From Craspedostauros australis (Eukaryota), in contig JALAGF010005569.1 of assembly GCA_030167865.1 (NCBI GenBank), positions 1 to 64,000 of the forward strand: DNA of 64,000 nucleotides, in the 5' to 3' direction. Shown here piece after piece: positions 671 through 24,470 of the stretch. The position numbers were made by a program, and so were the translations under genes. Every line of letters begins with the position of its first letter. Positions within the stretch are counted from its first letter, which is position 1. The notes under the pieces are model-generated. The model saw only the letters and a list, made by a program, of their open reading frames with translations. It was not told the origin of the DNA and did not search any database.

Positions 671-3600
671 AACACCGCTGGACAACGTCGGCCGAACGGA
701 CGGGATTGTTGACGGTGCTTCGCTATTCGATGGAACACCACTTTCGAGGCTTGGCTGCGAAGATGGGATTGCCGATGGTGCTTCGCTGCTGGACGGAACA
801 CCACTGGACAAACTCGGCTGCGAGGATGGAATTGCTGATGGTGATTCACTGCTGGATGGTACACCGCTGGACAAGCTCGGCTGCGAGGATGGCACACCAC
901 TGGACAACGTCGGCTGCGAGGATGGAATTGCTGATGGTGATTCACTGCTGGATGGCACACCACTGGACAAAGTCGGCTGCGAGGATGGAAATGCTGATGG
1001 TGATTCACTGCTGGATGGAACACCACTGGACAAGCTCGGCTGCGAAGATGGAACACCACTGGACAACGTCGGCTGCGAGGATGGAATTGCTGATGGCGAT
1101 TCGCTGCTGGATGGAACACCGCTCGACAAAGTCGGCTGCAAAGATGGGATTGACGATGGCGATTCGCTGCTGGATGGCACACCACTGGACAAGCTCGGCT
1201 GCGAAGATGGCACACCACTGGACAACGTCGGCTGCGAGGATGGGAATGCTGATGGCGCTTCGCTGCTGGATGGAACACCACTGGACAAAGTCGGCTGCGA
1301 GGATGGGATTGCTGATGGCGCTTCACTGCTGGATGGAACACCACTGGACAACGTCGGCTGCGAGGATGGGATTGACGATGGCGCTTCGCTGCTGGATGGA
1401 ACACCACTGGACAAGCTCGGCTGCGAAGATGGCACACCACTCGACAAGGTGGGCTGCGAGGATGGGAATGCTGATGGTGATTCACTGCTGGATGGGACAC
1501 CGCTGGACAAGCTCGGCTGCGAGGATGGGATTGCTGATGGTGATTCACTGCTGGATGGAACACCGCTGGACAAGGTGGGCTGCGAAGATGGCACACCACT
1601 GGACAAAGTCGGCTGCAAAGATGGGATTGCTGATGGTGATTCACTGCTGGATGGAACACCACTGGACAAAGTCGGCTGCGAGGATGGGAATGCTGATGGA
1701 GCTTCGCTGCTGGATGGTACACCACTCGCCAAGGTGGGCTGCGAGGATGGGATTGCTGATGGTGATTCACTGCTGGATGGAACACCGCTGGACAAGCTCG
1801 GCTGCGAAGATGGCACACCACTGGACAAAGGCGGCTGCAAAGATGGGAATGCTGATGGCGCTTCGCTGCTGNNNNNNNNNNNNNNNNNNNNNNNNNNNNN
1901 NNNNNNNNNNNNNNNNNNNNNAAGCTCGGCTGCGAAGATGGCACACCACTGGACAAAGTCGGCTGCAAAGATGGGAATGCTGATGGCGCTTCGCTGCTGG
2001 ATGGACCACCACTGGACAAAGTCGGCTGCGAGGATGGGATTGCTGATGGCGCTTCACTGCTGGATGGAACACCGCTGGACAAGCTCGGCTGCGAAGATGG
2101 CACACCACTGGACAAAGTCGGCTGCAAAGATGGGAATGCTGATGGCGCTTCGCTGCTGGATGGAACACCACTGGACAAAGTCGGCTGCGAGGATGGGATT
2201 GCTGATGGCGCTTCACTGCTGGATGGCACACCACTGGACAACGTCGGCTGCGAGGATGGGAATGCTGATGGTGATTCACTGCTGGATGGAACACCGCTGG
2301 ACAAGCTCGGCTGCGAGGATGGGATTGCTGATGGTGATTCACTGCTGGATGGAACACCACTGGACAAGCTCGGCTGCGAAGATGGCACACCACTGGACAA
2401 AGTCGGCTGCAAAGATGGGATTGCTGATGGCGCTTCGCTACTGGATGGTACACCACTGGACAACGTCGGCTGCGAGGATGGGATTGACGATGGTGATTCA
2501 CTGCTGGATGGAACACCACTGGACAAAGTCGGCTGCGAGGATGGGAATGCTGATGGCGCTTCGCTGCTGGATGGGACACCGCTGGACAAGCTCGGCTGCG
2601 AGGATGGGATTGCTGATGGCGCTTCACTGCTGGATGGAACACCGCTGGACAAGCTCGGCTGCGAGGATGGGAATGCTGATGGTGATTCGCTACTGGATGG
2701 AACACCACTGGACAAACTCGGCTGCGAGGATGGGATTGACGATGGTGATTCACTGCTGGATGGGAGGCTGCTTGGAAGATTGCTGGATCGTGACGGCATC
2801 GACGAAGGTGGTGACGATGGCGCTTCATTGCCACTTGGCGTGATGCTTGGACCCTCGCTCATTGATGATGACGGCGCCGAGGAGGGTTGAGACGATGGTG
2901 ATTTACTATCAGATGGCATGCTACTCGGGATGTTGCTCGATGACGTTGGCATCGTCGATGGAGGAAAAGTTGGCTGTGCCGTCTCTTGTATCGCTGTTGG
3001 AGCGCTTGTCACATTGCTGACGGTCTGTTCGAACGTCGGTTCGCTTGTTTGCGGGGAAGGCGGCGTCACAGGAGCGCTGGTCGTTTGATTCTGGTCCAAG
3101 GATGGGGCAAGCGTCGCTTGTTGTTCGGTTGGCGATGCACTGATCGATGGTGGGAATGTCGGCTGTGATGTTTCTCCCACTGAAGGCGGATTTGAAGAAT
3201 CCAGTTCCGTTGGAACTACCGACAGTACTGTGGAAGGCTGGACTGTCGGGGCACTGCTTGCGTTTGGGACAACGGTGGAAGGTTGTTGTGACTCGAACGC
3301 CGTGAAGTTCAGGACTTGTGCTCTGTCGGTGCTCCCTGGTCGTGAAATGAAAGCCTCGAAGATGCGTGTGTACCCGCTTGGAAGCAGTCCTCTTCCCACC
3401 AAGTCGATCACCAGCGCATCGAACCGTTGCACGAATGCAACGAATAGACCCTCTTCTGTCGTGTACGTCAAATTTCCAGGTGAATCAGGCGGACCGACAC
3501 CATCATCGGTTGTGTTGGAATCTGCACCGTCATCAAGCTGGACGTCCTGCAAAAACCTAGTGGTCGTTGGGAAAAACGAAAAGAAAGGTTCTTCCGAGGG

Positions 3601-7800: not shown

Positions 7801-8290
7801 TGGCATGGTGGCGAAAACGCAGCGACAGGCGATGGCACTGTGAGCCGTCGCTTCTCTTCCACCAACGGATTGCGAAAGATCCCCAAAAGGCAGATCCGAC
7901 CAAAGACGAAAGGTCACCAAAACGCGACGCTTGGACGTCCAAGGAGATCCGCGAGCATCGATAACCAAACAGGGGAGAACGATCACGGCAACACATACTC
8001 CACGGTTGTGCGTAGGCGCGTGCAGTGGTGCTGATCCAAAGCGGACCTTGCAGCGAACACAGCCGGACTCTTCCAGGATCTCGCTGGCGTACTCTCAGAT
8101 CTGCCATCAGCGAGAAGCAGGCCTGAACCAAGAAGGCAGCGCATTGGCCCCATTCCTGCCGCCTCGATCAACTGGCATTGCGAGGCCGGACGCTGACAAG
8201 TAGAACCCATCCTCACCGTTGCATGTTATACAACACCGCTCTGGTACTGCTCGTGCATATAATAGGACTGCTGCCTACACAGAAATCACC

Positions 8291-11200
8291 ATGAGCGAGG
8301 GCGCCAACCGTTCTTGGAGGGGCATTGGCATCGCCCCATCCCCAAGCTCTGCGCCCATGCTGTCGTTGCCTGCCGGTACCACTTCTGGATCCTTCATGCC
8401 CCCGCAGGTCCTTGGAGTTTCAGGACCGCCTCAGGTTGCCGACAATCGCAATAGCAACAGCAACAAAACTGCTTCGGACGCATCGTCTCCGCAGCGCAAC
8501 GCGGACAATGCCTCTTCTGCACAAGTGGAGACCGTGGAGACTGCGGCACCAACACCCAGCAAGCCAGGACGGTCTCCCACCACACCCACGCAGGCACGAT
8601 CACGGTCGCAGCCGCCCACTAAGGTCCAGTCGCAATCGCCAAATGCTGCCGGTGCCAAAGCGACGCAGAGGAATGTTGTGCAGACCAAACCAAGGCTGGC
8701 ACACCGCCGATCGCAGCAGCTGCTCAAGCATGTCTCCAACGAGCAGAAGGCCATTGCGGCGGATCTGGTTGCGAAGGTCAAGTCAGACTCCAGATCGAAC
8801 CCCAAGAGCCACAGCGGCACAAGCATTGATGGCTCCGTGCCAGAGTCTGCCTCCCAGTCCATGTCGGCTCTTCCGGAATTCGACGCAGGCAACGATTCCA
8901 GCAGACGCGGACATCGCAGTCGGCTGCGTCATCGTAGTCATCCTGCGCTGTGCTCCTTCTCGCAAGGCATTCAACCCTTGGCGTTGCAGACGGCAGCCGC
9001 TGAGGCGAACACGGGCATGACTTCGACCATGAACGCAGACGCGGATATCCATAATGACGTTTTTCTTGCGTCCGGACGCATTCTCTACGTAGCTTGCGTC
9101 CGGACGCAAATTGAACGCTCAGTTTGCGTCCGGACGCAAATTGGGCCAATTTGCGTGGGGACGCAAATGCAAGCTCGCCGAAAATGCCACTTGTACTACT
9201 TAAGTCCCATGTTCCTCCACGATGTCCCGTGTTGCAGAAAAAAAACCCGATTTCGGTCCGAAACCCGAAAGTGGGCTGTTTTTTTTCTGACTCCTTCGAG
9301 TAACGCATTTATTTGGCGATTTCAAAAAAAAAAAACCTCGCGATGCAACACGGCGTCATTGGNNNNNNNNNNNNNNNNNNNNNNNNNNNNNNNNNNNNNN
9401 NNNNNNNNNNNNGTTCCTTTCCGTGCGCCTGTCTTGCTTTTCTGACGTCATGGGATCTAAGGTAATGATCTTTTACTTTTTGATTTCGATGTCATCGACC
9501 ACGATCCTGACAACAACACCAAAATCCTGGCAACGGTGTAACACAACAAGGAGGGTTGGGCACGAATCATGATTTTTTTGTTCAATTACCACAACTTTAG
9601 CGATTATTATAGATTTAACACATGAGTCATGTCGTGAGTCGAGATGGCCAGCGCAAGAGGATCAAAACAAAAAACGGGTTTTCGTAAAGCGTATTTGGGC
9701 TAGTCCTTTCAGTCGCCGCTTGCGTCCGGACGCAAATTGGCCCAATTTGCGTGGGGACGCAAACTGAGCGTCCAATTTGCGTCCGGACACAAGCTACGTA
9801 GGCCAGTACCAGGCCAAAATCATTATGGATATCGGCATGGATGAGTCAACCGGTGTGGATCTGGATGTGGCAGCAGAAGCGTACGCTGCCAACCGAGTGG
9901 CAACTGAAGCGAATGCAGAAGGTGCCGCCACCAACGCACGTGGGACAACGAATGGCAGAGCATTGCCCACAATCTTCGATGCCACCATGTTGACGATGAT
10001 GAATCACAACGGAATGGAGGTGGTCTTCGCCATTGTTCAGCAGGTGCCACCCGGGGACACCGCCTCCGTCAACTCTCCTGCCAAGCACCAACGTCGGAAC
10101 TACGAGCTCAGTGAACCCCCTGTCCTGCTGGTGGTCGATGCCCGCGACTACTTCGTCATCCAACGATTGGACATGATCCCACCACAACGCAACAGAGCAA
10201 ATACCAATGCCAACGTCAATGTCAACCTCACGATCCCAACGTTTGCGCCGGTTGTGAGTCTCACAGCCCATCCCGATTCTGGGACGGTCGTTGTTGTGCA
10301 GCAGGATGGAACACTGACCACCTTCACACCCCAGCGGACATGCTCACCACAGTATCCCGATCAGCAACCAAACGCGACATCTCTTGTCGCACCAACGGCT
10401 CTTCCTGATGGTCACAGCAGTAACACGGGTGCAACCAGCCCTGCGACCATCCCGGCAATGCACGGCAAATACAACTGGAGGCCAACCTGTCAGAACGATC
10501 TAAACCACGTCTTCGTCGCGGAGGAGGAGGAGGAAGGAGAGGAAGACGACCAAGCCAACGGGGCGCATTGGAGATTCATGGACCGTCGATATTCGAAAGT
10601 TGACTCACCCGCAGATTCACACTTCTCCTGCGTGGATGTGTCGCAGTCTCAACAGAAGTGCTTCCTGGTGTCACACGGCAGCCAGATTGCCTTGTTCGAC
10701 GGACTTTTGGAACCACCCTGCCAGCCAAACCCAGCAGCCACATCCTCAACGTCAACGTCAGTGCCACTATCGCCAACCGCTTCGTCACGATCCAACCGCC
10801 TCCCCACCGCCAAACTCATTTGGACCACCATGTGCTCATCTCGCATCTTGACAGCCAAGCTCTCCGGCGACGGCAGAAGCATCGTCGCCGTCCTCGAGGA
10901 GGACAACCAACCCGCACCCACAGACCCAACAGCTGTCAATCAAAACTACGAGTATAGCACAGAACAGGCTTTCGATGACGATGTACATTCCATGGAGGAG
11001 ATCGATCAAGGAATGCAACCCAACCAGAAGTTTGGATGCAGGACGTTCATTCACGATCTCGATGATGGATTTGCGTATGATGTGGCGCACAACTCCGTGA
11101 CCAACCTTTCGGTTGGAGATGACAACGATGCGCAGTCGCAAATGACAGGCCAAGTGACAAAAGCAGGAGCAACGTCAATCGATCAACTCCATCGCTCCAA

Positions 11201-14200
11201 CCTCGAGAGAGCAAGTTCTGTCGGCCGCGTGTACAAATCGGGACCATTCCTTCCGCATTCATCGCCGGTCACCAGAATCTCATTCCGAAGCGCCGTGGGG
11301 CAAACATCTGCACATTTCCAACCCAGCAGCGCCAGCGGCACCAGCAGCGGGAGGAACACAGCGAACCACTTCCAAGATGAAGCGTACATTGGTACCGACC
11401 TTTTGCTCACGTACTGCAAAGACAGATCGACCGTGAGGATCTTCCAGCAATCTGACTGGTCGCAGTGCATGGGCTGGACGACCTCGCCCGACACGCGTGC
11501 CGACTTCGTCTCCGGCAGCGTTGCCTTCACGCTCGGCGATTTGGAACCGCTGGCACCTGCCACAAAAAATCGAAGCACGAAGAGACGGAATGGCGGCAGA
11601 TCCCTCAGCCGGCATAATTCTGGCGCTTCCGACTCCACCGGCAGCCTCGATCCAGCCCTTATCAGCCGTGCACCGAACGGAGGCCTTGGCATGGGGTCGC
11701 CGCCCACTATCGGCAGCACGAGCAACAACATACTCGCAGCGGGGGCATGGATTGCGGAGCTGACCTTCCGACATTCGTCCTTCCCGGCCCTTCGATTGTC
11801 CCGGCTGTCCTACATGCATCACAGCTCTGCTGGCAGCGGCAGGCACGGCCTCCAAACAGCTCACTTCGAATCCGTCGCGGCTATCTTGCCCTGCGAATCC
11901 TTGGACGCCGAATCCATCCTCCAAAGCGATGATCTGGGATTCTGCATCCATGGCATCTGGCCTGCGTGGAATCCATGGACGGCGACTGGGGGGTTGTTCG
12001 GCAACGCGGTTCCTCCCGAAGACCTCACCAAGACGCTCAGCGGGTCTGCCATGGCGTTTCTGGGGTTGGCTGGCAACAACGGCATCAACAGCGGCGGCAC
12101 ACCGAGCAACTTTCCGGGAGGTAGCGGTGGATTCAGTGCCGGCGGCGGCGGTCTCAGCATTCACGGCAACCCTATCGCGATGGGCGGTACCCATGCCCCA
12201 CCCAGCGAGCTCCGCATTTTCGCATCCAACCCGAACAGCGAGATAGTCACCATGGAATTCCCACTTTGGGGCGATGAAGAATTTGGCAGTATGGAGCTGG
12301 GGAGCCCGTTGAGGCATGTCCTAAACCTCGCGGAAACTGCCGAAGTCAACACTCGACCGGCAGCAACGGAGTTGGTGTTGGCAACGTCAGCCATGACAAA
12401 CAGTGGAACCATGCCTGCCATTGCATTTCCAACTCCTGCTGCTGCTGCTGCTGCTGGTGGTCCAGTTTCCATGAAACACGAATCATCTCGTCTGTGTGCA
12501 CAGATCGATCCATTCGAACAACGTTCCATCCATCTCACATGGCGTCGCCAGGGTGGCATCGTGCTGCATTCGCCTGATTGGGACCAGCAGGCGCCGCCCG
12601 AAGAAAATGCTCTTGTTGCGCACAAGGACGACCCACGCCCCAACACACCTTTGGTGCTCCAGGACTGGACCAAAACGCCGATCCCTCTCTCCTTGCCATC
12701 GCTGGAGCTCCCGGATATCCTACCGCCCTTTCAGACGGCTACGACGGTGTCGAAAAAGCAGCTCGATGTCATTATTGCGTTATCGTGGTTTGCTGACGAC
12801 TCCTTCGGTTGTCCGCCAGTTCTCCTCGCTTTGATGTCGTCGGGGAACTGCGTGCTCTTCGAAATCCCACCGCCCATCTTCGCGCTGGAGCCCAACACTC
12901 CGTCGTACGATCCCTTGTCTGGCAACTCCGTCAACAGCGCTGGAAGTACCGGCAGTGGACCCAACAGCCCCGGCAACTTCAATGCCATGGGAGGTCAAAT
13001 CGGACCAACGATGAGTGAAATGGACAGCGACGTCGATGACGAATCCGATCACTACGACGAGCATGAGGCGTACACCGTCATGGTGACGCCTCATCCGGAC
13101 TTTGGTCTTGGTCTGCGGCTGGAATCGCCGATGGATGGAATGCCAGCCGTCGCGGGGTCCTTCAAGAAGAACCCGTTGAATGATGGCATGCTGCCAGTGG
13201 AGAAGACCGGTATGATCATGCTTGGCGATGAACTGTTGAGCGTGAACGGGGTTTCGTTGGAGAACATGACATTTGATGATATCATCGGAACGGTGCGACA
13301 TGTCGGAGCAGAGTCAGGACCAGGGGAAGCACTGCGATTACAGTTCCGACCGTCCCAACCGCGTCCCCGGCGCAGCAGCATGCAGTTGGCAAGCCTGGCA
13401 TTTGCAGAAGCTCCTTCGGTGGATGCGGAAGATCGCAACAATGATAACAGAAACAATCACGGCGCAGATTTCGCCTCGGATGTTCCGAAGAAGCTAAAAT
13501 CGCCAGGCCGAACATCGACCACGGGTAGCAGCAACGACAACTCCAACCGTAGGTCGATGGAACAGATCCTCGGCGTGCCACCAAGCAAGGTCGCACATGG
13601 CCGACCGAGCGGCCATCGGCGCCATGCCAGCGATGGCGGCAACAGTCTCATCAGCTACATACAAAGTCAGCCGATCAGCGAATTCCACCAGCAATTTGGG
13701 CGCGTCCTGATGGAAACCAAGACCAAGCTTCCCCACGGATTCCTTTCGAGCGATGCATCCACAGTGCAGCAGCGCTTCCTCGTGATTCCTACAGCTCCCA
13801 AAGATGATGCCGATGGACCACCTGTTGTCAGCGGACTCGTCATCGTCGCGTCGAGACGTACTCTGCACGTGAAGCATCTGATCTCGCACCTGGACGGTAA
13901 TGATGATCTCCACTCGACCGGATCGTTGATAGATTTGGGTGTTTACGAGATCGAAGAACCGACATTAGAGGAGGGTGATGGCGATGGCGACGGCCACAAG
14001 GAGGTGAATGTGCGCATTCAATCCATTCAAAGCGTGTCATCGACGGGCGATACGTATTGCTTGTTGGTGACGGACAATATCAGTCGATCCTTCTTTGTTT
14101 TCATCGACTTCGACATGAGCACACACGCGAACCCAAACGTGGACGTGGACGAGAGAATTGCCAACCAATCTAAGCCATCCGCCACAATGCGTGGATATCC

Positions 14201-17200
14201 CGCCTTCACTACTCGCGCCAGCACAGAGGCAGGACAAGAACTGCGATCTGCTAAATGTGGTTCGTTGGGAACAATTGCAACGCTGAACGCGTCAGGGCAA
14301 CTGCAGGTATGGACTGCACGACCAGATCCGGCAGCGACCGAAGGCGCACCTGGCAAGCTTCAGAACGAGTACCTGCACAAGGACTACGTCATGGAAACGA
14401 TTCTCTTGCCAGATACCAGCACGGAGGCCGTTGATTTTGCATTCCCGCCCATGGGCACGCTGGATGCGCATGCCAGCCTCGTGGTGTTCACCAGCCACGA
14501 AGCCATACTGTACCAACGAAGAGGATCGAGCAAGTCCTACAGCTGCGTGCTGCAGGTTAAGTACACCTCGACATTGAATGAGCCAGCCATTGGCGCGGCG
14601 ACAAAAACAAGAGACTCCGAAGAGATGCCGTCTCTTCATCGCGTCAATCCGCAAGACGCCTTCCCTCACATCATGAACGCCATCATCGCGGCAATCGATT
14701 CCTACGACGAGCAACACTTTCATTTGCCAGATTGGTCACCGGAATCACTCCTGGCCCATTTGTGCACGATGGAACAAGGTGCCAAGCTCGCATTGGATCG
14801 ACACGTCAAGGCAGTCTTACTGTGGCTCGCAAATCGCATCAATGACCGGCCGATGGACAATGCCATCGATGCCAAGTTGCCGTTGCACGTGTGTCCATTC
14901 GACGAGATAGGCGGAGTTCTGCTGTTGGAAGCAGCGACGGAGGACGAAAAGGCAGATTCCTCTGGCGACGACGCTACGGCTCTGTTGGCCACAATCACGA
15001 CCGCAGCTGATGCTAGCGATGGCGCCAACAGCGATGAGACGAAGGTGTTCAAGGAGACCGTGGAACGATTGAAAACCGTCCTGGCGAAGCCTCGTAAATT
15101 CAAAAGCAGCAACAAGAAATCGTCCTTGCACTGGTCGAGTTCATCTGGATTGGGAGCCTCCATCCTTTCGGCTTCGAAGTCGGCGCACGATGATACACTG
15201 CCTCCCATACTAAAGATGATGGGTCCGGATGAGCTCCGTGTTCTTTGGGCACTCTGCGATTTCAGTCTGAAGTCGCCAAACAACAGCCAGCTCGATGTCC
15301 CTGGTCAGCTGGCCACGACCATTCACGCTCTCCATGAATCGTTGCAGCAGGCACCCGAGATTGAAAAAATAGACGAGTCCGCTGACAGTCGATGGGATGC
15401 CGTCTCGGGCCATGCCTTCCAGGTGCGACGAGCGTTGAGCAGCATTTCGGAGGCGAATGCCAAGCCCGCTGGCAACGCGTCAGCCGGGTGTCTCGGAGCC
15501 TTGCTCAGCGACTGCCAGACCAAGCTGATTGACGATTTCCGCCCGAAAGGTGGCAAGCTCGGATGGGAGCAAGCCCGGTCGCTGAAAATGCCGTTCTGGA
15601 TCCGATCAGACGACAAGCTGCGGGAGATCTGCGAAGAAATCGGGCAGCACACGTATCGGGAAACACGCGACATCATGAAGTCGGCTCTCTTCCTGATTGC
15701 CGCAGGCAAATTGCGGACGTTGCGAAACCTTGCGGCGGCAGATCATACCATGACGGGAAAGAAGTTCTTCAAGTTCGTGACAGGTTACGACTTCTCCTCC
15801 GAGCGAGGCAGACGTGCTGCTGAGAAGAACGCCTTCAGTTTGCTGCGTAAGAACCAGTACGAACCGGCTGCGGCTTTCTTTTTGCTCGCTCAGCCGCCGA
15901 TTCTCAAGTCGGCGGTGGAAACAATCGCGACCAAATTGAATGATCTGAGCCTGGCGTTCCTCGTGGCTCGACTGGTCACGAAGGAATCCACTTCGAAGAG
16001 CGGGCCTGGGATGGGTGGAGGCTCTGCCTTCCCTTCGAGCTTTGGTGGTTTCGGTGGAGGTGGTGGTTATGCCGCCTCCGAAGCCATCGTGAAGAAGGAA
16101 GTCGTTGCAGACAAGGAGAAATTCTGCGATTGGAAGCCCAGGCTCACGAAGATCGCACGAGACGTTCTCCAAGATCGAGGACTGCCAGGCACGACGGACG
16201 ATTCCTGCCTGTCTGCGATCCAATGTCTGTGGTTGGGACAGAGACACGACGCCGCCAACTGGCTGTCCAATCTGTTTGGTTCGGAATCACACACTGTCGC
16301 AAACTTCGTAGCAAGTGCTTCACTCCCACGCATCAAATCTGCCGAGAGAGTGAAGAATGATAAACATCGAGCAATGCGAAGCATGAATGCACTCATCAAC
16401 TTTATCGCGGGACCTCTGCTGCTAAAGATGATGGGCACGTCGCGCAAGGCGCTGTTGTCGTCATCCTTGACGGTTGCGACAAGCCTGATGCACGCAGGCA
16501 TAGACCTTCCGTCCATCCGATGTTTGGTGCAAGGGTTCCAAGAATCCGAGGAGGAAGAGAAGGAGCATGTTGAAGAAGATGCTGAAAAGAGCTCAAAGGC
16601 CGCAGCAGCAGGTACTGGCAGCGGCGCAGCGACGTCATCGATCTTCGATTCATTTGATGCTCCGCGACCTGCGAACCAGCAGCCTGGTGCCACGAGCGGC
16701 ACTTCGAGCGGGATGGTGTCGTCTTCTATCTTTGATAGTTTCGATGCACCCAAACCCAAGCCTGCGACAGCCCAGTCCTCCATCTTTGACAGCTTCGACG
16801 CCGCACCGCCCAAGCCTGCAAAGGCTCCTGCACCAGCGCCCAGTTCGGGACAAATGGCATCTTCAATCTTCGACAGCTTCGATACGGCACCGCCTCCTCG
16901 CAAACCAGCACCTGCTCCAGCCCCAGCAGCTCATTCAGGACAAATGGCATCGTCCATCTTTGACAGTTTCGATGCGGCACCACCACATCGCAAGCCGGTA
17001 CCGGCTCCTACACCGGCATCCATCTTTGATGCGTACGATGTCAATCCCCAAGAAGCCACCAAGCCAAAATCAATGCTGGAACAATTTGGTGGCCCCCCAT
17101 CTGCGAACAACGCATCGAAGGCATCGGATCAGCACCAGAAAGGACCGACACCCAATCCAGTCTCACCGTTGGACTTTGTTGACCTCGATGAAGTGAACGA

Positions 17201-20200
17201 GGGCGTAGCAGAGCTTGTGCACCTGGAAGTTCCAGAGTTGTGGATGCAGTGGCAACAAGAAACGTTGCTGGAAGTTGCTGCTCGTCGTGTGGTGCGAGAA
17301 GTTGCCACGATTACGAGTACCTTCCACGGAGATACATTCTTTCCAGATACCTCGGCCTGTGATACTGGGCTGGGAATCCTCGTTCCGAGACATGCCTCGC
17401 AGGTGCTTCAATTCGATTGCAACGGAGATGACATCCTCGACGACATCAATGCATGCTTGGATGGCATATCGACAGTTAGTGGTCTCGATCGCAACCATGT
17501 CGGATGCAAGGCTGTTGACTTGATCAGAGGATGCGGCAGGACGAACCGATTGATGATATCCGTGCTGCTTCAGCTCGCCATCGGCCAAACAGAGGTGGTC
17601 GAAGATACCATCCGGCATGCGAGTTCGTCTCTGATTCAAGATTGCCAGTCCGTCAGCTTGACGAACGATCGCCTGTCGGAGAAGCAGCCAACACTCGGCA
17701 GAGATGCGACGCTGCACTCCCGACGGCAGGCGGCCAATATGAGCTGGCAGCTCGAGCTCTGCCTTTGGCTGCATCGAAGCGGCGTCTTCCCTCTCACTGG
17801 TATTGCGCTGAGCGAAATGATTGCCGCGACGAGGATTGGCATGATCATCGCCAGCTGGAACAAGGACTTTGATTGCATGCAGACGATGATCAAGTACGAG
17901 CCAGATTGCCTTGTGGATGAGCTCGCCGGACGGCAGCTCTGGGGCAGCCTCAAAATGATTCCTAAAGATACCGACAAGGACAAGAGTTCAGGCGGCAACA
18001 ACCATGGTGGCGGTTGGGAGTTCCTGGTGGACTGCCGCCGCGCCGAAGCGACCAAGCTCCTCAAGTCAAAGCAGACAGGGCGTTTCATTCTCCGCCCGCA
18101 TGCTGAGGAACACGGCGTGTTCACCTTGAGCTTCAAGACGAACCTTGCTCCTGCGGATGACGTTGTGCAGCACGCCATCATTCGACTATCGGACACCGGA
18201 TTCCGTTGCGGCTCGTTCGGTCCATTCGCGACGTTGATGAAGCTGCTTGAGGCGGTATCAGCATCCCTGCCGTTTGATCTGCGATTCGACCTACCGCCAA
18301 CGGAGGATATGTTGAACGAGGAAAAGCTCAAGCCATCACCCAACGCAACATTCTTCCGTAAGTTTGGCCTGATGCGTTCGAAGCAACTGAAGGCTGGCAA
18401 CACGCCCGACGGCCCTGCTGGTTTGCTCAATCTTGACGAGGGTGATGAAGAAGCGCAAGGCAGCGATGACACTGGCGACAATGCCAATGTTAATATCAAT
18501 GCACATGCAAATGCAAATTCCAACGCTGATGCACCCATCGAATCACCAAATCCCGAGGTTGCTGTACAAGCGAAGAAGGACAACGCGCAGCGTGCAAAGC
18601 AGTTCGGTCTCTTCCTCGAACTCTTGGTACTTACGAAGTTCCGCACTCAGCTCAGCGGCATCGTCTCGGCAAGATACGAGGACACAGAGCAGGGCCACGA
18701 TCTCTTCGCCAACTCGGAGGATATGTACTCCATCGGAAGTCTGTCGGATGACTTGCACAAAAATTCGGTAGCACTGCAGTACTCCGTGGCGGTCAGAATG
18801 CTCCGCCCTTTCCTAAACTGGTGCAGACGGCTGGAGCTTGATGTTCTCACATCTTTGTCACCAGATGTTGCCGACACCGTGGCGGCACCCCTGACAATCC
18901 CAATCGCGTTCAAGGCGTCGGAGACCGCCATCGAGATATCGCCAGCCGAGATCTCCACCGTCGTAAGTGCGGGAGACAAGGTCATCCGTCAGATGATCAA
19001 GCGAGGTTCGGGGGTGCAGTTCCGCACCATGCGCTTGGGCGATGGCAACGACAGCGCGATGGTAGTGCTGTTCAGCAAGCGCGAAGCGATGGAGTGGTTG
19101 GTGGAAAGCGGCACGGAGAAATCCACCCGCGACGCCTTCAATCGGTTGAGGCAGATGGAGATCAGCCGCGTCATCGAGGCAATCGATTTCAAGCAGCTTG
19201 CGCCGAAACTGTACAAGGACAGCGTCAGCAATGCTAAGGAGAAACAGAATGCGCAGGCTGAAGCAACCGCAGATGCAAGCACAGGCGCGGTCAGATCCAT
19301 CGAGGACACCGAGGGCATTCGGTACCGTATCGTCGATCCATGGGAGGTGGAACCACTGCGCAGCAGAGAGGCCGAGACGCTGGGCGCGTCGCTGGGTCGT
19401 CACCGATTGCATGCGTTCAGCCTCGCCAAAGTGTCCGCATCCTGCAGTGATGTGTTCCGCACTTTGGGTGGCTCTAAGCTGTTGGAATTGTGGGTCGCAT
19501 GCAACGGTGGCGTGACGCTGTCAAAGGCATTGGCGTCCGCTCACCCTCCATGGGAACGTGGTCCAGGCGTGGAGCTAGCGAACTATATTGGTGGTGGGGC
19601 TGGTGGGGCTGATGGACTCACAATCCTCGAATCTCAACCATTCATGGAGAGCATCCGGCAGCACCTCTATCGCAACGCCCTGTACCGACGCCTCGGCACG
19701 CCGCAACGCTTCCTGGCATTGATCCAGGTAGAGTTGCTGGATCTGAAGAACCTGACAGCCCCAAGCGGCTCGCTGTCGTTGTCCGTCTATTCTCTGCTCC
19801 GTTTGAAGCGAAGCAGCAGCAACAGCAGCAGCTCCAAGGGATCGAAGGGCGGTGCATCATCGGGCAAGTTGCTCAGTCACAAAGCCCGCACGTTGGACAG
19901 CGTCGCAACCGCTCCAGTCCGGCTGGGCAAGACCATGAATGCCGGTCCCAACGCACCAGCATCGTGGGGAAGCTTGGTTCGATTCCGCTTCCCGCTCCCC
20001 GAATTCGTGCAGACGGATGGAGCGTCGCAGTGCAACGATCGCGAAGCACTCTTCAAAGGACCGCCGACGGTACTGCAGCTCGCAGTGTACGAAAAGAAGT
20101 TCATGAGCGATTCGCTGCTGGGTGCCGCAGACGTCAAGCTGGATGGCCTGGGCACTGATGGGCAGCTCGAGGAATGGGTGCCGCTGCAAAACGACAGCTA

Positions 20201-20534
20201 CGGCATCCATTGGTTTGCACGCATTCGACTGACACTCCGCTTCGAACTTTTGTGTCTCAACGATCCGGTCATTCCCCAACCAGGTGATGCCGATGCGAGC
20301 AGGACGCCCGTCAGCGATGGCAATGGCAACGCTGCTGCTGTTACTTCTGGTCAGGCGCAATCGAATGGGGATGGCAACGGAGGATTCGGTCATAGCGATG
20401 GTGATGAGCTGGCACCCAGTGTTGGACTCAAGCGCATTCAACAGCTGACTGACAGTGGCGGTGTCAGCGAGGACATCAAGAAGAGCGTGAGCACGCCAGA
20501 CCTGCTGAGTTACTTCGAGGGCATCGTGTACTAG
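8291..20534 (+). CDS. Rabconnectin-3alpha/DmX/RAVE Rav1-like giant protein with additional PDZ, SH2, DEP-like and C2 domains; coding sequence interrupted by an insertion at 9049-9828
   Basis: The 3585-aa ORF 9777-20534 has the Rav1_C signature (PFWIRS...DFSSERGRRAAEKNAFSLLRKNQYEPAAAFFLLA), a PDZ domain (FGLGLRL...GDELLSVNGVSLENMTFDD), an SH2 domain (WEF...RAEATKLL...GRFILRPH...FTLSF...VQHAII...GPFATLMKLL) and a C-terminal C2 domain (LQLAVYEKKFMSDSLLG...EEWVPL). The upstream ORF from ATG 8291 joins it in frame (..MNADADI|GMDEST..) when the element and one ATAT are removed. Confidence 0.88.
9049..9828. mobile_element. TIR DNA transposon / MITE-like insertion with ATAT target-site duplication
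   Basis: ATAT at 9045-9048 and at 9829-9832. Terminal IR CCATAATGA (9049-9057) / TCATTATGG (9820-9828). 82-bp subterminal IRs at 9085-9166 and 9720-9801 (6 mismatches by eye) built from TTGCGTCCGGACGCAA palindromes. AT-rich interior with an N gap. No transposase is visible. Confidence 0.9.
9363..9412. other. Assembly gap (50 N) inside the transposon-like element
   Basis: Run of 50 N; the true element length is unknown. Confidence 0.99.
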
Positions 20535-21294
20535 AGTATTGCAGAGAGTAAAACGATAGAGTGAGCCAGCATGAGTATCACAGCAGTACTATTCCGGAGA
20601 GAGCAGTAGTAGGTCGTACACCATGCAGCACCGTCCAACAGATAGATGAAATGGCTCATCCTAATAGTCGTACGAACTGTCAAAGCCATTGTTACCCACA
20701 CAGGGCGGGCCAGTTTCATCTTCAATGTGCGTGCTGTCCGTCGAGTATGGGGGAAGTTTCTTGTATTAGCTGGTGGTATGTATAATATGAATGGTTGTTT
20801 ATTTGTACAGAGGTTAGTCGCAAGTAGTGTTGGTGGTGGTGTTTCCATTTGATGGATAATTTGTCTTCGAGTGGGCTCGGAGCATGAGGCAGGCGTGGGC
20901 GTGCTATTGGCTTGGGCTGTTGGTGATTGTCGATTGATGCAATAACTGCATGGAACATCGATCAACTCCGCTTGAGCATTCGCATGTCCACGCCATTCAC
21001 AGGATTAGCGTTAGTAATGTGGCACATACACGTAAGTACATACGAGTGCTGACTCGTACACACAGGTATAGTATAGTACGCCACGAACGGAACAGGGCAG
21101 AACAAAGCTTGGAATGGAGTTCACACATTGTGCGTTCCATAGTTCGCAACGTTGCTGTGGGGGGTCCCATCGGCATGGCTGCTGTTGCTGTTGGTATTGC
21201 TGCCGGCATGGTTGCCGTTGTCGTTCGAGTTGGCATCTGCGTTCCTGTTGCTGTTGACATCCTGTGCATGGGTCATGTCCAAACCCGCCGCCAG

Positions 21295-22251
21295 TCATTC
21301 GCGTTTCACGTCGTCCTCCGCCTCTCGGTACTCGAATCGCTCCCATTCGAACAACAGGGTGCGCTTGATGGGCATTGGGATGCTGCCGTAGCCAATCATG
21401 GGGATGAGGTTGGATGTGTTGTTGCGATACTGCTTGTACCGTTCCGAACATTCCGGGTTGGTGTAATACCGTTTGAGGTTCTTGCCTTCGGCATTCCAGA
21501 CGCCCGTGGCGGTGACGTTGAGCAGGATGTGCATGGTGAAGATCGGGGAAATGGCGCTGAGTGCCCAGACCCAGATTGCGCCGTCTCCGGACCCGGCCGT
21601 CGTGCTGCCAAAGGCGAAGACCCAGCAGCACCACCACTGGAAGATCTCGCCGAAGTAATTGGGGTGTCGCGAGTAGGCCCACAATCCGACCTCGCAGAAG
21701 CCGCCTTGGCGTCCCGCCTCCACCCAGACGGTCTTCTGGATGTCTCCCACGATCTCGACAGCGACGGAACCGGCGAATCCAACCAAGGAGATCCATTCCA
21801 AAGTGGACAGGGACGGCGCCTCGGAGACTTCCGCGCCGATATCCGCGCTGCTGTCGTTGATGAAGATGATGGGCATGGAGATGAGGTAGACCCACATGCC
21901 CTGCATGAGCCAAGTGGCGAGGAAGTACAGGAAGTTGCCCTTGATCTTGTCGAATCGTGCGTCTCCTTTGCGGGAATGCGCGCGGTAGGCCAAGAAGAGC
22001 AGCAGCCAGGATCGGCTCAGCACGAAGACCATCGTCGCCAGCGTCGCGGAGGATCCCCATTCGAGTTCCTTCGCGCTGTCCTGCGACAGCAGGTAGCTGC
22101 CCGCTCCCACGATGATGAAGTTGAGGCCGCCGAAGATGTCATAGAAGGTCTCCGTTTGCAATGCGTAGGCCGCAGCGAACCCCGACAGCTGGATTATGAG
22201 GGTCACGATGGCCGACAGGGTGAACAGCGATGTCGAATGTAGGAACGACAT
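21295..22251 (-). CDS. DUF1295 family multi-pass membrane protein (steroid 5-alpha-reductase-like)
   Basis: Motifs TETFYDIFGGLNF, R..SRKGDARFD, E..GDIQK, GLWAYSRHPNYFGEIFQWW, Y..Y..NTSNLIP. Probable start MSFLHS at 22251. Confidence 0.9.
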   Translation of the reverse strand: MSFLHSTSLFTLSAIVTLIIQLSGFAAAYALQTETFYDIFGGLNFIIVGAGSYLLSQDSAKELEWGSSATLATMVFVLSRSWLLLFLAYRAHSRKGDARFDKIKGNFLYFLATWLMQGMWVYLISMPIIFINDSSADIGAEVSEAPSLSTLEWISLVGFAGSVAVEIVGDIQKTVWVEAGRQGGFCEVGLWAYSRHPNYFGEIFQWWCCWVFAFGSTTAGSGDGAIWVWALSAISPIFTMHILLNVTATGVWNAEGKNLKRYYTNPECSERYKQYRNNTSNLIPMIGYGSIPMPIKRTLLFEWERFEYREAEDDVKRE

Positions 22252-23216
22252 TGTGCTATCTCGTGTCGTGCAGTGAAGTGCGTACTTTCGCTGTTCTTGA
22301 GAATGGTGTGATTGAGTTGCGGGTGTGTACGTATTATATAATAGTAAATGTGATGAATGAGATGGAATGAACCACGATGAACTGTACCGTGACGAGCTGT
22401 GCTGTGATGGAAGGTCTCCAACGAGATGTTTATGACCAATACTTGTGTGTGTGTGGAGTACTATGTGCAGATGAAGGTGCAAGTATGTACGGCAGAGCAC
22501 AACGATCAAGAGTGCACAGAAGTGGATTGGGCGATGTGGCTGTGCTCGTCAAAGGAGGATCAACGTCGAACCTTGTGGAGATGCTGCCTCTTGGAGCGCA
22601 ACCAGTGGGCAAGAAGGGTGAAGATTAACACGCCACGAGTAGTCGTACTGCCGCCAACCATCATTGGAGAGGTCATCATTGTTGCCACCGCCGCCGCTGT
22701 CGTCATCCATCCATCCATCCATCCTCATTGTTCTCACATGTTTTTGTTCCTTGGGACAAGATCCACAGAGCGAGAAACGACACGATTTCTTCTCCCATGC
22801 CACGTTGTTTGAGTCTGCGTCAGATTGTGTGATGTCCAATCGTGAAGAAAATGAAGTGTTCCTTCGAGTCGAACTGACTCGTGCGACCCACATGTCGAAA
22901 CTTCTTCGTGGCGAAAACAGAGCAAGCCGCTTTGATACAATTTTCCGCACACCAACAACGCACAATCGACAACAGAAATTCAACAACAGAAAACGCACAA
23001 TCAAGGCGACAGACAATCGACGATAGATCGCAGGCAATCGACAGGGAGCAAGAGAAGAGGCAGACCATGACAGGACCGCCATCTCGTTCCTTCCACCCGC
23101 GAGTGTTTGCATTAGTATAGCATGGTACTCCCACTGTGCTCTTACTCTCCACGCAATCAGAGGAAGGGCTCCAAGGGACGATCGCAACAAGGCCTCTGCT
23201 TCACAGATTGAGCATC

Positions 23217-24470
23217 ATGGACGATCCGCCGCATCTGAAGATCAACATCAAGGACGCATCCACCATCAGGAGTCAACTGGATGAATTGAAAGCGAGTGCT
23301 GATGGCGAGGCCGACAATGTCAGAGTTGCTTTGACATTCGACTACCCGTTGACAGAAGAATGCGCGTACGCGATCCGCGACTGCGGACGACTGATACAGG
23401 AGTTGACCTTGCTCCAGTTCAGGGAATCGAGCGCGGAAGGCATCAACTTCCTGGCCTCCGTCATGCAGTCAACAGACTCGCTAGCGCATCTGAGATCGAT
23501 CCATCTGTCATCGCGTTGGGTGAATCCTCACCAACGAGAATATGTCACTGATGAAGATCATCTGGAGGATCTACGGTGTCCATATGGCTCAGAAGAGAGT
23601 GACCCTCACCTATGTCTCATGGCGATACTCCAAGCCATTGCCAGCAACCCGAAGGTGCAGGAGGTCTCCTTGGAAAGACTCCAGCTCACTCTCTCCCATT
23701 TCCAAATTCTCATGAACATGGATGTCACCGCACAGGACGAAGGCATCCCGTTGCGACCATACTGCCACTCCTATCTGAAGAAGCTGGAGATCAGTGATTG
23801 CGAGACACCCCTTGAGTGTTTCCAAACACTGATCCAAGATGAGGTCAGGCAGGCACCTGCCTTGAGACCAAAGCAACCCATGTGCCGACTTCAGCACCTG
23901 CGGTTGCATCGAGCAACCTTCAATGCCTCTTGCATATTGCAGGTTGCCGATCGTCTGCAGCACATCTTCTTGGACATGGAGCCCACCGGGATATCATTGG
24001 ACGCGGCCCGATCCCTCCGCAACCTTCTCTCATCTCCCAACTGCACGCTTCAGACGATGGAGTTGGTGGGACCTTCCCCGCATGTCATTCATGACATCAT
24101 CGATGGAATCGAATCCAACAGATCGCTGGACACATTGACCATGACAGAAGATTTGACCCTGCGTCACTGCACCAAACTACATCACATGGCAAAACACAAT
24201 CCCAACCTGGAGAAGCTCACGCTCAGGTCCCTGTACTTCGATAGGTTCGTCGAAGGTGGAGAGGAGCGTTCCCACTTCTTCCAACGCATGCAATTCGCCG
24301 TGCAACTGCGCGAACAACAGTACGAATGTTTGACAAGCATCACAACTGATTTTCCTTTGTCGCACTGGAGTCACATCTTGCGGCAGTTGCTGCAATCCCG
24401 AAGGGGACAAGCCTACGTGTACGATCTGCTGCATCATCGGGCGGGCGTACTGGGCATTATTCATTCATGA
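23217..24470 (+). CDS. RNI-like/leucine-rich-repeat protein of unknown function (diatom-type)
   Basis: Periodic LxxLxL segments (IQELTL, LRSIHL, VQEVSL, LKKLEI, LQHLRL, LQTMEL, LDTLTM, LEKLTL) and the C-terminal 'PLSHWSHIL...VYDLL' pattern typical of diatom RNI-like proteins. Confidence 0.7.
   Translation: MDDPPHLKINIKDASTIRSQLDELKASADGEADNVRVALTFDYPLTEECAYAIRDCGRLIQELTLLQFRESSAEGINFLASVMQSTDSLAHLRSIHLSSRWVNPHQREYVTDEDHLEDLRCPYGSEESDPHLCLMAILQAIASNPKVQEVSLERLQLTLSHFQILMNMDVTAQDEGIPLRPYCHSYLKKLEISDCETPLECFQTLIQDEVRQAPALRPKQPMCRLQHLRLHRATFNASCILQVADRLQHIFLDMEPTGISLDAARSLRNLLSSPNCTLQTMELVGPSPHVIHDIIDGIESNRSLDTLTMTEDLTLRHCTKLHHMAKHNPNLEKLTLRSLYFDRFVEGGEERSHFFQRMQFAVQLREQQYECLTSITTDFPLSHWSHILRQLLQSRRGQAYVYDLLHHRAGVLGIIHS

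What the first reader, a model, noticed from the sequence alone, without database searches (positions are those of the whole stretch)
13070..20250. Rav1/rabconnectin-3 fused to PDZ, SH2, DEP-like and C2 signalling domains
Seen: PDZ (~13070-13350), Rav1_C (~15480-15990), SH2 (~18015-18270, with FILRPH at the FLVRES position keeping the Arg), a DEP-like stretch (~18980-19340, LFSKREAMEWLV...AFNRLRQM...YRIVD) and C2 (~19720-20250) in one ORF. Known: yeast Rav1 and animal DMXL1/2 are WD40 + Rav1_C V-ATPase assembly scaffolds without these domains, and SH2 domains are rare outside holozoans/amoebozoans. Inference: a lineage-specific scaffold coupling V-ATPase assembly to phospho-, lipid- or Ca2+ signalling, potentially relevant to acidification of the silica deposition vesicle.
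Basis: partly seen in the sequence, partly recalled or inferred. Interest (0 to 1): 0.72.

Follow-up and report, generated by a model that had tools for sequence, protein, structure and literature searches.

The report
Rav1 scaffold with extra signalling domains
One very long diatom gene encodes the proton-pump assembly factor Rav1 with four extra binding modules added (PDZ, SH2, a DEP-like domain and a C2 domain); this design is shared in part across the stramenopiles and has not, as far as I could find, been described.

Summary
Window 9777-20534 (+) is one uninterrupted 3585-aa ORF. It aligns end to end with full-length diatom orthologues.

- **Rav1p_C:** strong (E 1e-29; yeast Rav1 structure 9cop, E 9.5e-31 by family profile).
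- **SH2:** above Pfam's cut-off. The three phosphate-pocket residues are invariant in 41 of 41 sequences.
- **PDZ:** borderline in Pfam, but clear by family profile against solved PDZ domains (E 1.8e-8).
- **C2:** missed by Pfam, but a confident C2 fold (Z 12.3). It is homologous to an oomycete Rav1 C-terminus that does pass Pfam C2.
- **DEP-like:** no sequence support. Two independent fold searches put DEP domains on top, at middling scores (Z 8.2).

The design is not diatom-specific.
- C2 is on the Rav1 of an oomycete and of pelagophytes.
- A PDZ is on two unnamed non-diatom Rav1 relatives.
- SH2 is in diatoms, Triparma and pelagophytes.

This weakens the proposed link to the silica deposition vesicle. 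The C2 lacks the usual calcium-binding aspartates.

Best reading: a stramenopile RAVE/rabconnectin scaffold that is targeted to membranes and to phospho- or C-terminal peptide partners. The function is inferred, not shown. I rate it a new variant of a known kind, of moderate interest.

The parts
9825..20534 (+). Probable coding sequence of the Rav1/DMXL-like protein. The ORF is open from 9777, the first ATG is at 9825, and the stop is at 20532-20534. No intron is needed.
   Evidence: A single BLASTP HSP covers aa 63/69-3585 against full-length orthologues P0002 (41% identity) and P0017 (39%).
13071..13349 (+). PDZ domain (aa 1099-1191) with a conserved DFGLGLRLE loop. It lies about 700 aa before the Rav1p_C match.
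   Evidence: Pfam PF00595 23.3 bits on the piece, cut-off 23.2. Family profile against PDB: GRIP PDZ 1p1d at E 1.8e-8, and the other 43 rows after yeast Rav1 are PDZ-domain proteins. G26 G28 L29 R30 L31 E32 of the piece are invariant in 41 of 41.
15498..15986 (+). Rav1p_C core (aa 1908-2070). It matches the central conserved region of yeast Rav1, which binds V1 subunits there.
   Evidence: PF12234 at E 1.1e-29. PDB 9cop_x (yeast Rav1) at E 7.6e-12 with the single sequence and 9.5e-31 with the family profile. The role of this region comes from review passages.
16635..17045 (+). Six tandem SSIFDSFD-type short motifs in Pro/Ala/Lys-rich linkers (aa 2287-2423).
   Evidence: Regex scan. IFDxxD occurs in 39 of 40 aligned orthologues, 0-9 copies each. 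It also appears as a repeated block in the family consensus.
18009..18290 (+). Src-type SH2 domain (aa 2745-2838).
   Evidence: PF00017 34.6 bits, cut-off 21, profile positions 5-75 of 77. Foldseek hits to tensin-family SH2 2l6k at E 1.4e-4 and 2kno at E 3.7e-4. R2755, R2773 and H2799 are invariant in 41 of 41.
18552..18878 (+). Two long predicted helices between the SH2 and the DEP-like domain (aa 2926-3034).
   Evidence: AF2 model m644d9fc675f0, helices 226-264 and 296-327. No further test was made.
18957..19352 (+). DEP-type winged-helix domain (aa 3061-3192). Element order: helix, long beta-hairpin, two helices, wing strands, with a low-complexity insert before the last strand.
   Evidence: Model mf2de9905066b, core pLDDT 81-94. 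VIA search of 48,161 chains: P-Rex1 DEP at Z 8.2 and 7.8, then DEPTOR, pleckstrin, Dvl, RGS9, DEPDC5 and Epac2. Foldseek: pleckstrin DEP at E 0.053, and 13 of the first 20 listed rows (ranks 1-22) carry a DEP domain. Second look: ranks 1-13 are all DEP proteins. No Pfam hit.
19317..19562 (+). Conserved block before the C2 (RYRxVDPWEVE..., aa 3181-3262). It is shared with the oomycete Rav1.
   Evidence: pLDDT 84-91 in the large model. Invariant DPWEVE. BLASTP against Plasmopara P0245 at E 8e-7 and 5e-6.
19707..20252 (+). C2 beta-sandwich (aa 3311-3492), probably calcium-independent.
   Evidence: VIA Z 12.3-10.2 against many C2 domains, model range 611-792. Foldseek gave 62 matches at E<=1e-3; of the rows shown, all but two SH2 entries were C2 or C2-like domains. 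Homologous to the C-terminus of Plasmopara Rav1, which passes Pfam C2 at 30.5 bits, cut-off 22. Loop residues.
20490..20531 (+). Conserved C-terminal tail STPDLLSYFEGIVY (aa 3572-3585).
   Evidence: Tails of 41 sequences. P874, D875 and Y879 (model numbering) are at least 90% conserved. 24 of 41 end in [V/L/I]Y.

Best explanation
This is the stramenopile orthologue of Rav1/DMXL, the large scaffold of the RAVE/rabconnectin-3 complex that re-attaches the V1 sector of the V-ATPase to the membrane-bound Vo sector.

Shown here: the conserved V1-binding core (Rav1p_C) is embedded in a 3585-aa protein that also carries
- a PDZ domain upstream of the core;
- downstream, six SSIFDSFD short motifs, a Src-type SH2 with an intact phosphate pocket, a DEP-type winged helix, a conserved pre-C2 block and a C2 beta-sandwich without the usual calcium ligands;
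- a conserved C-terminal tail.

Inferred:
- The C2, perhaps with the DEP-like domain, holds the scaffold on a target membrane through lipids or a membrane protein, without calcium.
- The SH2 reads a phosphorylated residue (pTyr, or pThr/pSer as in Spt6) on a partner or on the protein itself.
- The PDZ binds a C-terminal peptide.
- Together these decide where and when V1 is re-attached to Vo.

The modules were added stepwise. C2, its preceding block and probably the PDZ are found widely in stramenopiles. SH2 and the DEP-like domain are found within ochrophytes.
For: Identity
- PF12234 at E 1e-29. Yeast Rav1 9cop at E 9.5e-31 by family profile.
- 131 proteins at E<=1e-3, of which the 120 listed are 2004-3889 aa long (most about 3000-3900; a few shorter, probably partial), cover 73-100% of the C-terminal 886 aa (most 99-100%) and carry PF12234. 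Every listed row that names an organism names a diatom.
- Rav1p_C in 14 of 14 orthologues scanned.

SH2
- Above the Pfam cut-off in the window and in 8 of 14 orthologues; 14 of 14 at E<=0.021.
- The alphaA2 Arg, betaB5 Arg and betaD4 His are invariant in 41 of 41. A review names these positions as pTyr contacts (passages).

PDZ.

C2; loops.

DEP-like.

Distribution
- Plasmopara halstedii Rav1/DMX has Rav1p_C plus Pfam C2.
- Pelagophyceae sp. CCMP2097 and Chrysophaeum taylorii have Rav1p_C plus the C2. CCMP2097 also has a diverged SH2 by BLASTP (E 3e-5); Chrysophaeum matches my SH2 model at E 2e-5.
- Triparma columacea has Rav1p_C plus SH2 (28.1 bits), the DEP-like domain and the C2.
- The PDZ model hits 2 of 26 non-diatom proteins, P0194 and P0244, both Rav1p_C plus C2.

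Function of the Rav1 core comes from review passages.
Against: - No experiment or expression data for this gene was seen.
- No RAVE partner (Rav2/ROGDI, Skp1, WDR7) and no V-ATPase subunit was examined. The window's genome is not held.
- DEP has no sequence support, and its Z of 8.2 lies in the range the tool gives for the best match of models with no clear relative.
- C2 and DEP are not found by Pfam in the window or in any of the 14 orthologues scanned.
- Whether diatoms make enough pTyr for a Src-type SH2 to read was not examined.
- The SH2 model has only moderate confidence, pLDDT about 67-71.
- Some SH2 domains bind unphosphorylated ligands; the top SH2 fold hit, 2l6k, is titled a 'nonphosphorylated peptide recognizing domain'.
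- The N-terminal beta-propellers expected of Rav1 gave no WD40 Pfam hit at E<=1 and were not modelled.
Confidence: 0.55

Rival explanations
1. It is a Rav1 orthologue, but the added domains are structural or protein-protein pieces and not signal readers. The SH2 binds an unphosphorylated or internal segment. The C2 and the DEP-like domain pack against each other or against RAVE partners, and the PDZ is an internal brace. V-ATPase assembly would then be regulated as in yeast, without phospho- or lipid input through these domains.
For: - The DEP-like and pre-C2 regions are more confident inside the 885-aa model (pLDDT 83-93) than alone (mean 65), which suggests packing between domains.
- The C2 lacks calcium ligands.
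- Many solved C2 matches are protein-interaction C2 domains, for example Munc13-1 C2A and CEP120.
- The top SH2 fold match is a non-phosphopeptide binder by its title.
Against: The alphaA2 Arg, betaB5 Arg and betaD4 His are kept in 41 of 41 sequences across centric and pennate diatoms. The Arg and the QH motif are also kept in a pelagophyte. That is hard to explain unless a phosphate-binding pocket is under selection.
Confidence: 0.25
2. The protein keeps the Rav1 core, but its main role has moved away from V-ATPase assembly. It would be a general membrane-traffic or signalling scaffold, as the first-described Rab3 GEF/GAP link of rabconnectin-3 suggested.
For: - More than 1500 aa downstream of Rav1p_C have no counterpart in yeast Rav1.
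- The domain set (PDZ, SH2, DEP, C2) is typical of signalling adaptors.
- The review notes early Rab3-related interactions of DMXL2 (passages).
Against: The stretch that matches the V1-binding region of yeast Rav1 is the best conserved match to known proteins, at 39% identity to the oomycete orthologue and E 1e-29 to Pfam. [quoted passage not shown]
Confidence: 0.12
3. The architecture is an artefact: a mis-assembly, or read-through of neighbouring genes joined into one ORF.
For: None found. Only the unusual length and domain mix raise the question.
Against: - The frame is open for 10.7 kb.
- The same order of parts recurs in the 40 orthologues aligned out of 131 found in many independent assemblies.
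- A single full-length HSP links the ORF to two orthologues.
Confidence: 0.01

Closest known systems
Yeast Rav1 (RAVE complex; PDB 9cop)
   Same: Shares the Rav1p_C core, which binds V1 subunits in yeast. E 9.5e-31 by family profile.
   Different: Yeast Rav1 is 1357 aa. The review passages describe it as a double propeller plus alpha-solenoid. They mention no PDZ, SH2, DEP-like domain, C2, SSIFDSFD repeats or conserved tail.
Animal DMXL1/2 (rabconnectin-3 alpha)
   Same: A giant Rav1-family scaffold of similar size, about 3000-3400 aa, with the conserved central region (passages).
   Different: The C-terminal extension of DMXL is WD40 repeats. Here it is SH2, a DEP-like domain and a C2. No DMXL sequence was compared directly.
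Oomycete Rav1/DMX (Plasmopara halstedii, P0239/P0245, named by its source 'RAVE complex subunit RAV1/DMX protein')
   Same: - Rav1p_C at 39% identity.
- A homologous pre-C2 block and a C-terminal C2 that passes Pfam.
- A weak PDZ-like match at a comparable distance upstream of the core.

   Different: No SH2 or DEP-like match by Pfam, BLASTP or my own models. No SSIFDSFD repeats by one regex.
Src-type SH2 domains (PF00017; nearest solved folds are tensin-family SH2 2l6k and 2kno)
   Same: Full-length Pfam match. The FLVR-type arginine, the alphaA2 Arg and the betaD4 His are present.
   Different: It sits in a V-ATPase assembly factor of a stramenopile. Position betaD6 is Ile, where the review says it is often Lys. 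All 40 other orthologues carry a 15-45 aa insert after the TNL(V)P strand that the window lacks.
DEP domains of P-Rex1, Dishevelled, pleckstrin, DEPTOR, DEPDC5 and RGS7/9
   Same: Same order of elements, with a beta-hairpin arm between the first two helices. These are the top fold matches in two independent searches. From recall: PDZ and DEP also occur together in Dishevelled, DEPTOR and P-Rex1.
   Different: No sequence-profile match. Z only 6-8. There is a low-complexity insert before the last strand.

Membership tests
Rav1/DMXL (RAVE scaffold, PF12234) | Rav1p_C conserved central region | tested here: met
   103.7 bits, cut-off 27. Yeast Rav1 9cop at E 9.5e-31.
Rav1/DMXL (RAVE scaffold, PF12234) | N-terminal double beta-propeller (WD40) | tested here: inconclusive
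   No WD40 Pfam hit at E<=1. The N-terminal 1000 aa were not modelled. The family consensus shows WD-like strings.
Rav1/DMXL (RAVE scaffold, PF12234) | Binds V1 and Vo and promotes V-ATPase assembly with Rav2/ROGDI and Skp1 or WDR7 | not testable with these tools
   The genome is not held. No experiment was possible.
SH2 (PF00017) | Profile match above the curated cut-off | tested here: met
   28.9 and 34.6 bits against 21. 8 of 14 orthologues are above the cut-off.
SH2 (PF00017) | betaB5 (FLVR) arginine and other phosphate-pocket residues | tested here: met
   R2773, R2755 and H2799 are invariant in 41 of 41. The positions are named in review passages.
SH2 (PF00017) | Binds phosphotyrosine peptides | not testable with these tools
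   Needs a binding assay.
PDZ (PF00595) | Profile match | tested here: met
   Borderline in Pfam: 18.4 bits on the whole protein, 23.3 on the piece, cut-off 23.2. The family profile hits GRIP PDZ at E 1.8e-8, and the other 43 rows after yeast Rav1 are PDZ-domain proteins.
PDZ (PF00595) | Carboxylate-binding loop (GLGF-type; the motif name is recalled) | tested here: met
   DFGLGLRLE at aa 1106-1114. G-x-G-L-R-L-E is invariant in 41 of 41.
C2 (PF00168) | Sequence-profile match | tested here: not met
   No hit at E<=10 in the window and none in 14 orthologues at E<=0.1. The homologous C-terminus of Plasmopara Rav1 does pass, at 30.5 bits against 22.
C2 (PF00168) | Eight-stranded C2 beta-sandwich fold | tested here: met
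   Z 12.3-10.2, rmsd 2.5-3.5 A, nearly whole domains aligned. pLDDT 78-96.
C2 (PF00168) | Aspartate cluster for Ca2+ in the top loops (feature recalled) | tested here: not met
   The loop at aa 3326-3334 has no acidic residue. The loop around aa 3439-3445 has one Glu and one Asp and reads EKK. The same holds in the 21 sequences displayed. Loop positions were taken from the model's strands, not from a structural superposition.
DEP (PF00610) | Sequence-profile match | tested here: not met
   No Pfam hit at E<=10 on aa 3009-3241. None in 14 orthologues.
DEP (PF00610) | Winged helix with a beta-hairpin arm; nearest folds are DEP domains | tested here: inconclusive
   P-Rex1 DEP at Z 8.2, rmsd 3.8 A, 82 aligned. 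DEP proteins fill ranks 1-13 of the second look. Foldseek's best is E 0.053. The tool warns that a Z of 7-8 is common for models without a relative.

The most novel reading that the evidence does not exclude
In ochrophyte algae, reversible V-ATPase assembly is gated by phosphorylation that a Src-type SH2 built into the RAVE scaffold reads. The ligand could be a phosphorylated V-ATPase or membrane protein. It could also be the scaffold's own conserved C-terminal tail tyrosine (aa 3579), giving a Src- or STAT-like autoinhibition or dimerisation switch. The calcium-independent C2 and the DEP-like domain would meanwhile choose the target membrane. This would be a use of SH2-based phospho-signalling for organelle acidification outside animals and amoebae.
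Probability: 0.15. Interest if true: 0.8.

Novelty: new variant of a known kind. Interest (0 to 1): 0.5.

Why it matters
RAVE/rabconnectin is the only known dedicated assembly factor of the V-ATPase. How signals reach it is an open question in yeast and animals (review, passages).

A natural version that carries a phospho-reader, a peptide reader and two membrane-type modules points to concrete inputs. These can be tested by deleting single domains in transformable diatoms.

By their titles and the starts of their abstracts, papers listed tie V-ATPase to diatom silica formation and photosynthesis. I saw only that listing.

The find also adds a well-conserved, apparently functional Src-type SH2 to a lineage where such domains are little studied. 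The stepwise gain (C2 and PDZ first, then SH2 and DEP-like) gives a dated series for studying how a housekeeping scaffold acquires signalling domains.

Tried and rejected
- **PDZ binding the protein's own tail.** Complex prediction with aa 1096-1196 and aa 3546-3585 scored 0.10 and 0.02 against a mark of 0.34, which is no verdict. Separately, 17 of 41 tails do not end in [V/L/I]Y, which is poor for a strict PDZ ligand.
- **Expression.** No RNA holder is listed. One small run of guessed kind (X1) holds 0.22 of the sampled words. An identical 767-nt contig covers 19895-20661. I do not use this as evidence.
- **ESM Atlas look-alikes** of the C-terminal 885 aa: no usable hit.
- **Earlier findings of this scan:** none by place or by words.
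- **The window's own genome** is not held, so I could not look for paralogues, RAVE partners or V-ATPase subunits.
- **Pfam on three neighbouring ORFs** (8219-9445, 20950-22242, 23136-24470): no family.
- **Literature.** Searches for Rav1, rabconnectin, DMXL, RAVE and SH2 together with diatom or stramenopile terms found no paper on this architecture. One search was poorly designed, because the diatom terms alone filled the list.
  - The two surveys of SH2 proteins across eukaryotes (Liu et al. 2011, PMC4255630; Liu and Nash 2012, PMC3415846) are not held and could not be read. They may already list a stramenopile Rav1-SH2 protein.
- **PDZ column.** It was invalid, because the ends of the short query were misaligned in A3. 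I redid it.
- **Pelagophyte PDZ.** Not found by BLASTP or by my model. This does not show absence.
- **About 1200-aa SH2 plus C2 proteins without Rav1p_C** (P0150, P0155, P0161, P0176). I could not decide whether they are stand-alone genes or split gene models.
Full report
**What is in the sequence**

Window 9777..20534 (+) is a single open frame of 3585 codons. The first ATG is at nt 9825. BLASTP joins aa 63/69-3585 to the full-length diatom proteins P0002 and P0017 in one HSP each, at 41% and 39% identity. The gene is therefore complete, needs no intron, and is not a chance ORF or a fusion artefact.

**Domain by domain**

A Pfam scan of the whole protein gives three families:
- Rav1p_C, aa 1908-2070, 103.7 bits, E 1.1e-29;
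- SH2, aa 2753-2825, 28.9 bits, cut-off 21;
- PDZ, aa 1135-1170, 18.4 bits, below the cut-off of 23.2.

On short pieces the SH2 rises to 34.6 bits over profile positions 5-75 of 77, and the PDZ just reaches its cut-off at 23.3 bits.

Against solved structures, the single sequence finds yeast Rav1 (9cop_x, E 7.6e-12) and weak PDZ hits. A profile of the window's C-terminal piece plus 40 full-length orthologues (A1) finds Rav1 at E 9.5e-31 and the GRIP PDZ 1p1d at E 1.8e-8. The other 43 rows are PDZ-domain proteins. The PDZ loop DFGLGLRLE is invariant in 41 of 41. I therefore count the PDZ as real.

**Structures**

An AlphaFold2 model of aa 2701-3585 with that alignment has mean pLDDT 67 and pTM 0.66. 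Its confident blocks are at model residues 370-445 and 480-560 and from about 590 to 800, apart from a disordered loop near 650-662.

- *C2.* Foldseek against the PDB gave 62 matches at E<=1e-3. Of the rows shown, all but two were C2 or C2-like domains (Munc13-1, cPLA2, CEP120, NEDD4L, ferlins); the other two were tensin-family SH2 domains, 2l6k at E 1.4e-4 and 2kno at E 3.7e-4. VIA re-alignment gave Z 12.3-10.2, rmsd 2.5-3.5 A and about 115-130 aligned residues over model 611-792, which is aa 3311-3492.
- *DEP-like.* A second model of aa 3036-3285 has mean pLDDT 65, with a core of 81-94. Its element order is helix, long beta-hairpin, two helices, then strand.
  - Foldseek found nothing at E<=1e-3. 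Even so, 13 of the first 20 listed rows (ranks 1-22) carry a DEP domain, the best being pleckstrin 1uhw at E 0.053, probability 0.87.
  - A search of 48,161 representative chains that does not rely on Foldseek ranked P-Rex1 first and second (Z 8.2 and 7.8; rmsd 3.8 and 3.5 A; 82 and 81 aligned). DEPTOR, pleckstrin, Dvl (Fzd4/DEP), pleckstrin-2, RGS9, DEPDC5, Epac2 and RGS7 followed. Other winged-helix-type and unrelated chains sit among and below them at Z about 5-6.
  - In the second look, ranks 1-13 are all DEP proteins.
  - The Z values lie in the range the tool calls common for models without a relative. I therefore call this a DEP-type winged helix by fold. Membership of the DEP family is not shown.

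**State of the functional sites**

- *SH2.* Across 41 sequences the SH2 is among the best conserved parts. R2755 (alphaA2), R2773 (betaB5, the FLVR arginine) and H2799 (betaD4) are invariant. A review names these positions as pTyr contacts (passages only).
- *SH2 insert.* The window lacks a 15-45 aa insert that all 40 other orthologues carry between the TNL(V)P strand and DDVVQH. That is why only the window gives a full-length Pfam SH2 match. Among 14 orthologues scanned, all have SH2 at E<=0.021 and 8 pass the cut-off. PF00595 appears in 11, and PF00595 or PF17820 in 12, with only 1 above the cut-off. None has C2 or DEP.
- *C2.* The loop after the first strand (aa 3326-3334) has no acidic residue. 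The loop around aa 3439-3445 reads EKK...D. The aspartate cluster that binds Ca2+ in classical C2 domains (recalled knowledge) is therefore absent, and a calcium-independent C2 is likely.

**Distribution**

A word-indexed search with aa 2700-3585 found 131 proteins at E<=1e-3. The 120 listed are 2004-3889 aa long, most of them about 3000-3900 with a few shorter and probably partial, cover 73-100% of the query (most 99-100%), and carry PF12234. Every listed row that names an organism names a diatom, pennate or centric.

An exhaustive phmmer scan of 1.84 billion representatives found 165 hits at E<=1e-3, 116 at E<=1e-10 and 60 at E<=1e-30. The weaker tier, at 24-42% identity, includes the following:

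| Protein | Organism | What it carries |
|---|---|---|
| P0170 | Pelagophyceae sp. CCMP2097 | Rav1p_C; C2 at 32% identity, E 2e-26; a diverged SH2 found by BLASTP only, E 3e-5, which keeps the Arg and the QH motif |
| P0197 | Chrysophaeum taylorii | Rav1p_C; C2; SH2 by my own model, E 2e-5 at Z=1e6 |
| P0273 | Triparma columacea | Rav1p_C; SH2 at 28.1 bits; DEP-like; C2 |
| P0159 | Chrysoparadoxa australica | DEP-like; C2 (816 aa) |
| P0210 | Epipyxis sp. | weak C2 match |
| P0239/P0245 | Plasmopara halstedii (oomycete), named RAVE subunit RAV1/DMX by its source | Rav1p_C; a C-terminal C2 that passes Pfam at 30.5 bits; the pre-C2 block; no SH2 or DEP-like match |

A PDZ model built from the diatom alignment hit 2 of 26 non-diatom proteins: P0194 (iE 9.5e-9) and P0244 (iE 2.7e-7). 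Both are unnamed Rav1p_C plus C2 proteins. BLASTP gives a weak PDZ-like match in Plasmopara, E 0.008, at a comparable distance upstream of Rav1p_C.

So C2, the pre-C2 block and probably the PDZ are old stramenopile additions. The SH2 and the DEP-like domain appear within ochrophytes. Every hit that names an organism names a stramenopile.

**What it most likely does**

The review passages state that the central conserved region of Rav1 binds V1 subunits, and that RAVE/rabconnectin-3 catalyses V-ATPase assembly. By orthology, this protein is the stramenopile RAVE scaffold.

The following are inferences:
- The C2, perhaps with the DEP-like domain, anchors it to a chosen membrane without calcium.
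- The SH2 reads a phosphorylated partner or an internal site.
- The PDZ binds a C-terminal peptide.

Nothing here tests binding, localisation or effect on acidification. The proposed tie to the silica deposition vesicle has no specific support, because an oomycete and pelagophytes, which to my knowledge (recalled) do not silicify, share parts of the design.

**Novelty**

Public sources already label single members as 'PDZ domain-containing protein', 'SH2 domain-containing protein' or 'RAVE complex protein Rav1 C-terminal domain-containing protein'. My searches of the held library found no paper on the combined architecture. The two broad SH2 surveys could not be read. I rate it a new variant of a known kind, with interest 0.5.

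Noticed in passing
window 16635-17045 (aa 2287-2423): Six tandem SSIFDSFD(A/T)PP-type motifs sit in Pro/Ala/Lys-rich linkers between Rav1p_C and the SH2. IFDxxD occurs in 39 of 40 aligned orthologues, 0-9 copies each. The pelagophyte P0170 shows repeated SALDGFDA(A) strings instead. They look like multivalent short linear motifs. The partner is unknown.
   Followed up: partly
window ~18150-18160 (between aa 2792 and 2796): The window's SH2 lacks a 15-45 aa insert that all 40 other aligned diatom orthologues carry at this point. This makes it the only member with a full-length Pfam SH2 match.
   Followed up: partly
window 20490-20531 (aa 3572-3585): The C-terminal tail STPDLLSYFEGIVY is conserved. 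24 of 41 sequences end in [V/L/I]Y, and the Tyr at aa 3579 is at least 90% conserved. Triparma ends right after the C2. Several unnamed or non-diatom relatives end in acidic-aromatic strings (..SDFF, ..DEVF, ..GDYFF, ..EDFF).
   Followed up: partly
proteins P0150, P0155, P0161, P0176: These unnamed proteins of about 1210-1280 aa carry the SH2 and the C-terminal C2 but no Rav1p_C. The P0150 cluster has 16 members, several of exactly 1212 aa. P0150 aligns from its residue 163 to window aa 2667 onward. They may be stand-alone SH2-C2 genes or split gene models of a Rav1 gene.
   Followed up: partly
window 8219-9445, 20950-22242, 23136-24470 (+): Neighbouring long ORFs of 408, 430 and 444 aa have no Pfam family at E<=0.1.
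   Followed up: partly
window 19895-20661: One small public run of uncertain kind (coded X1) holds an identical 767-nt contig that spans the end of the C2, the stop codon and 127 nt beyond it.
   Followed up: partly
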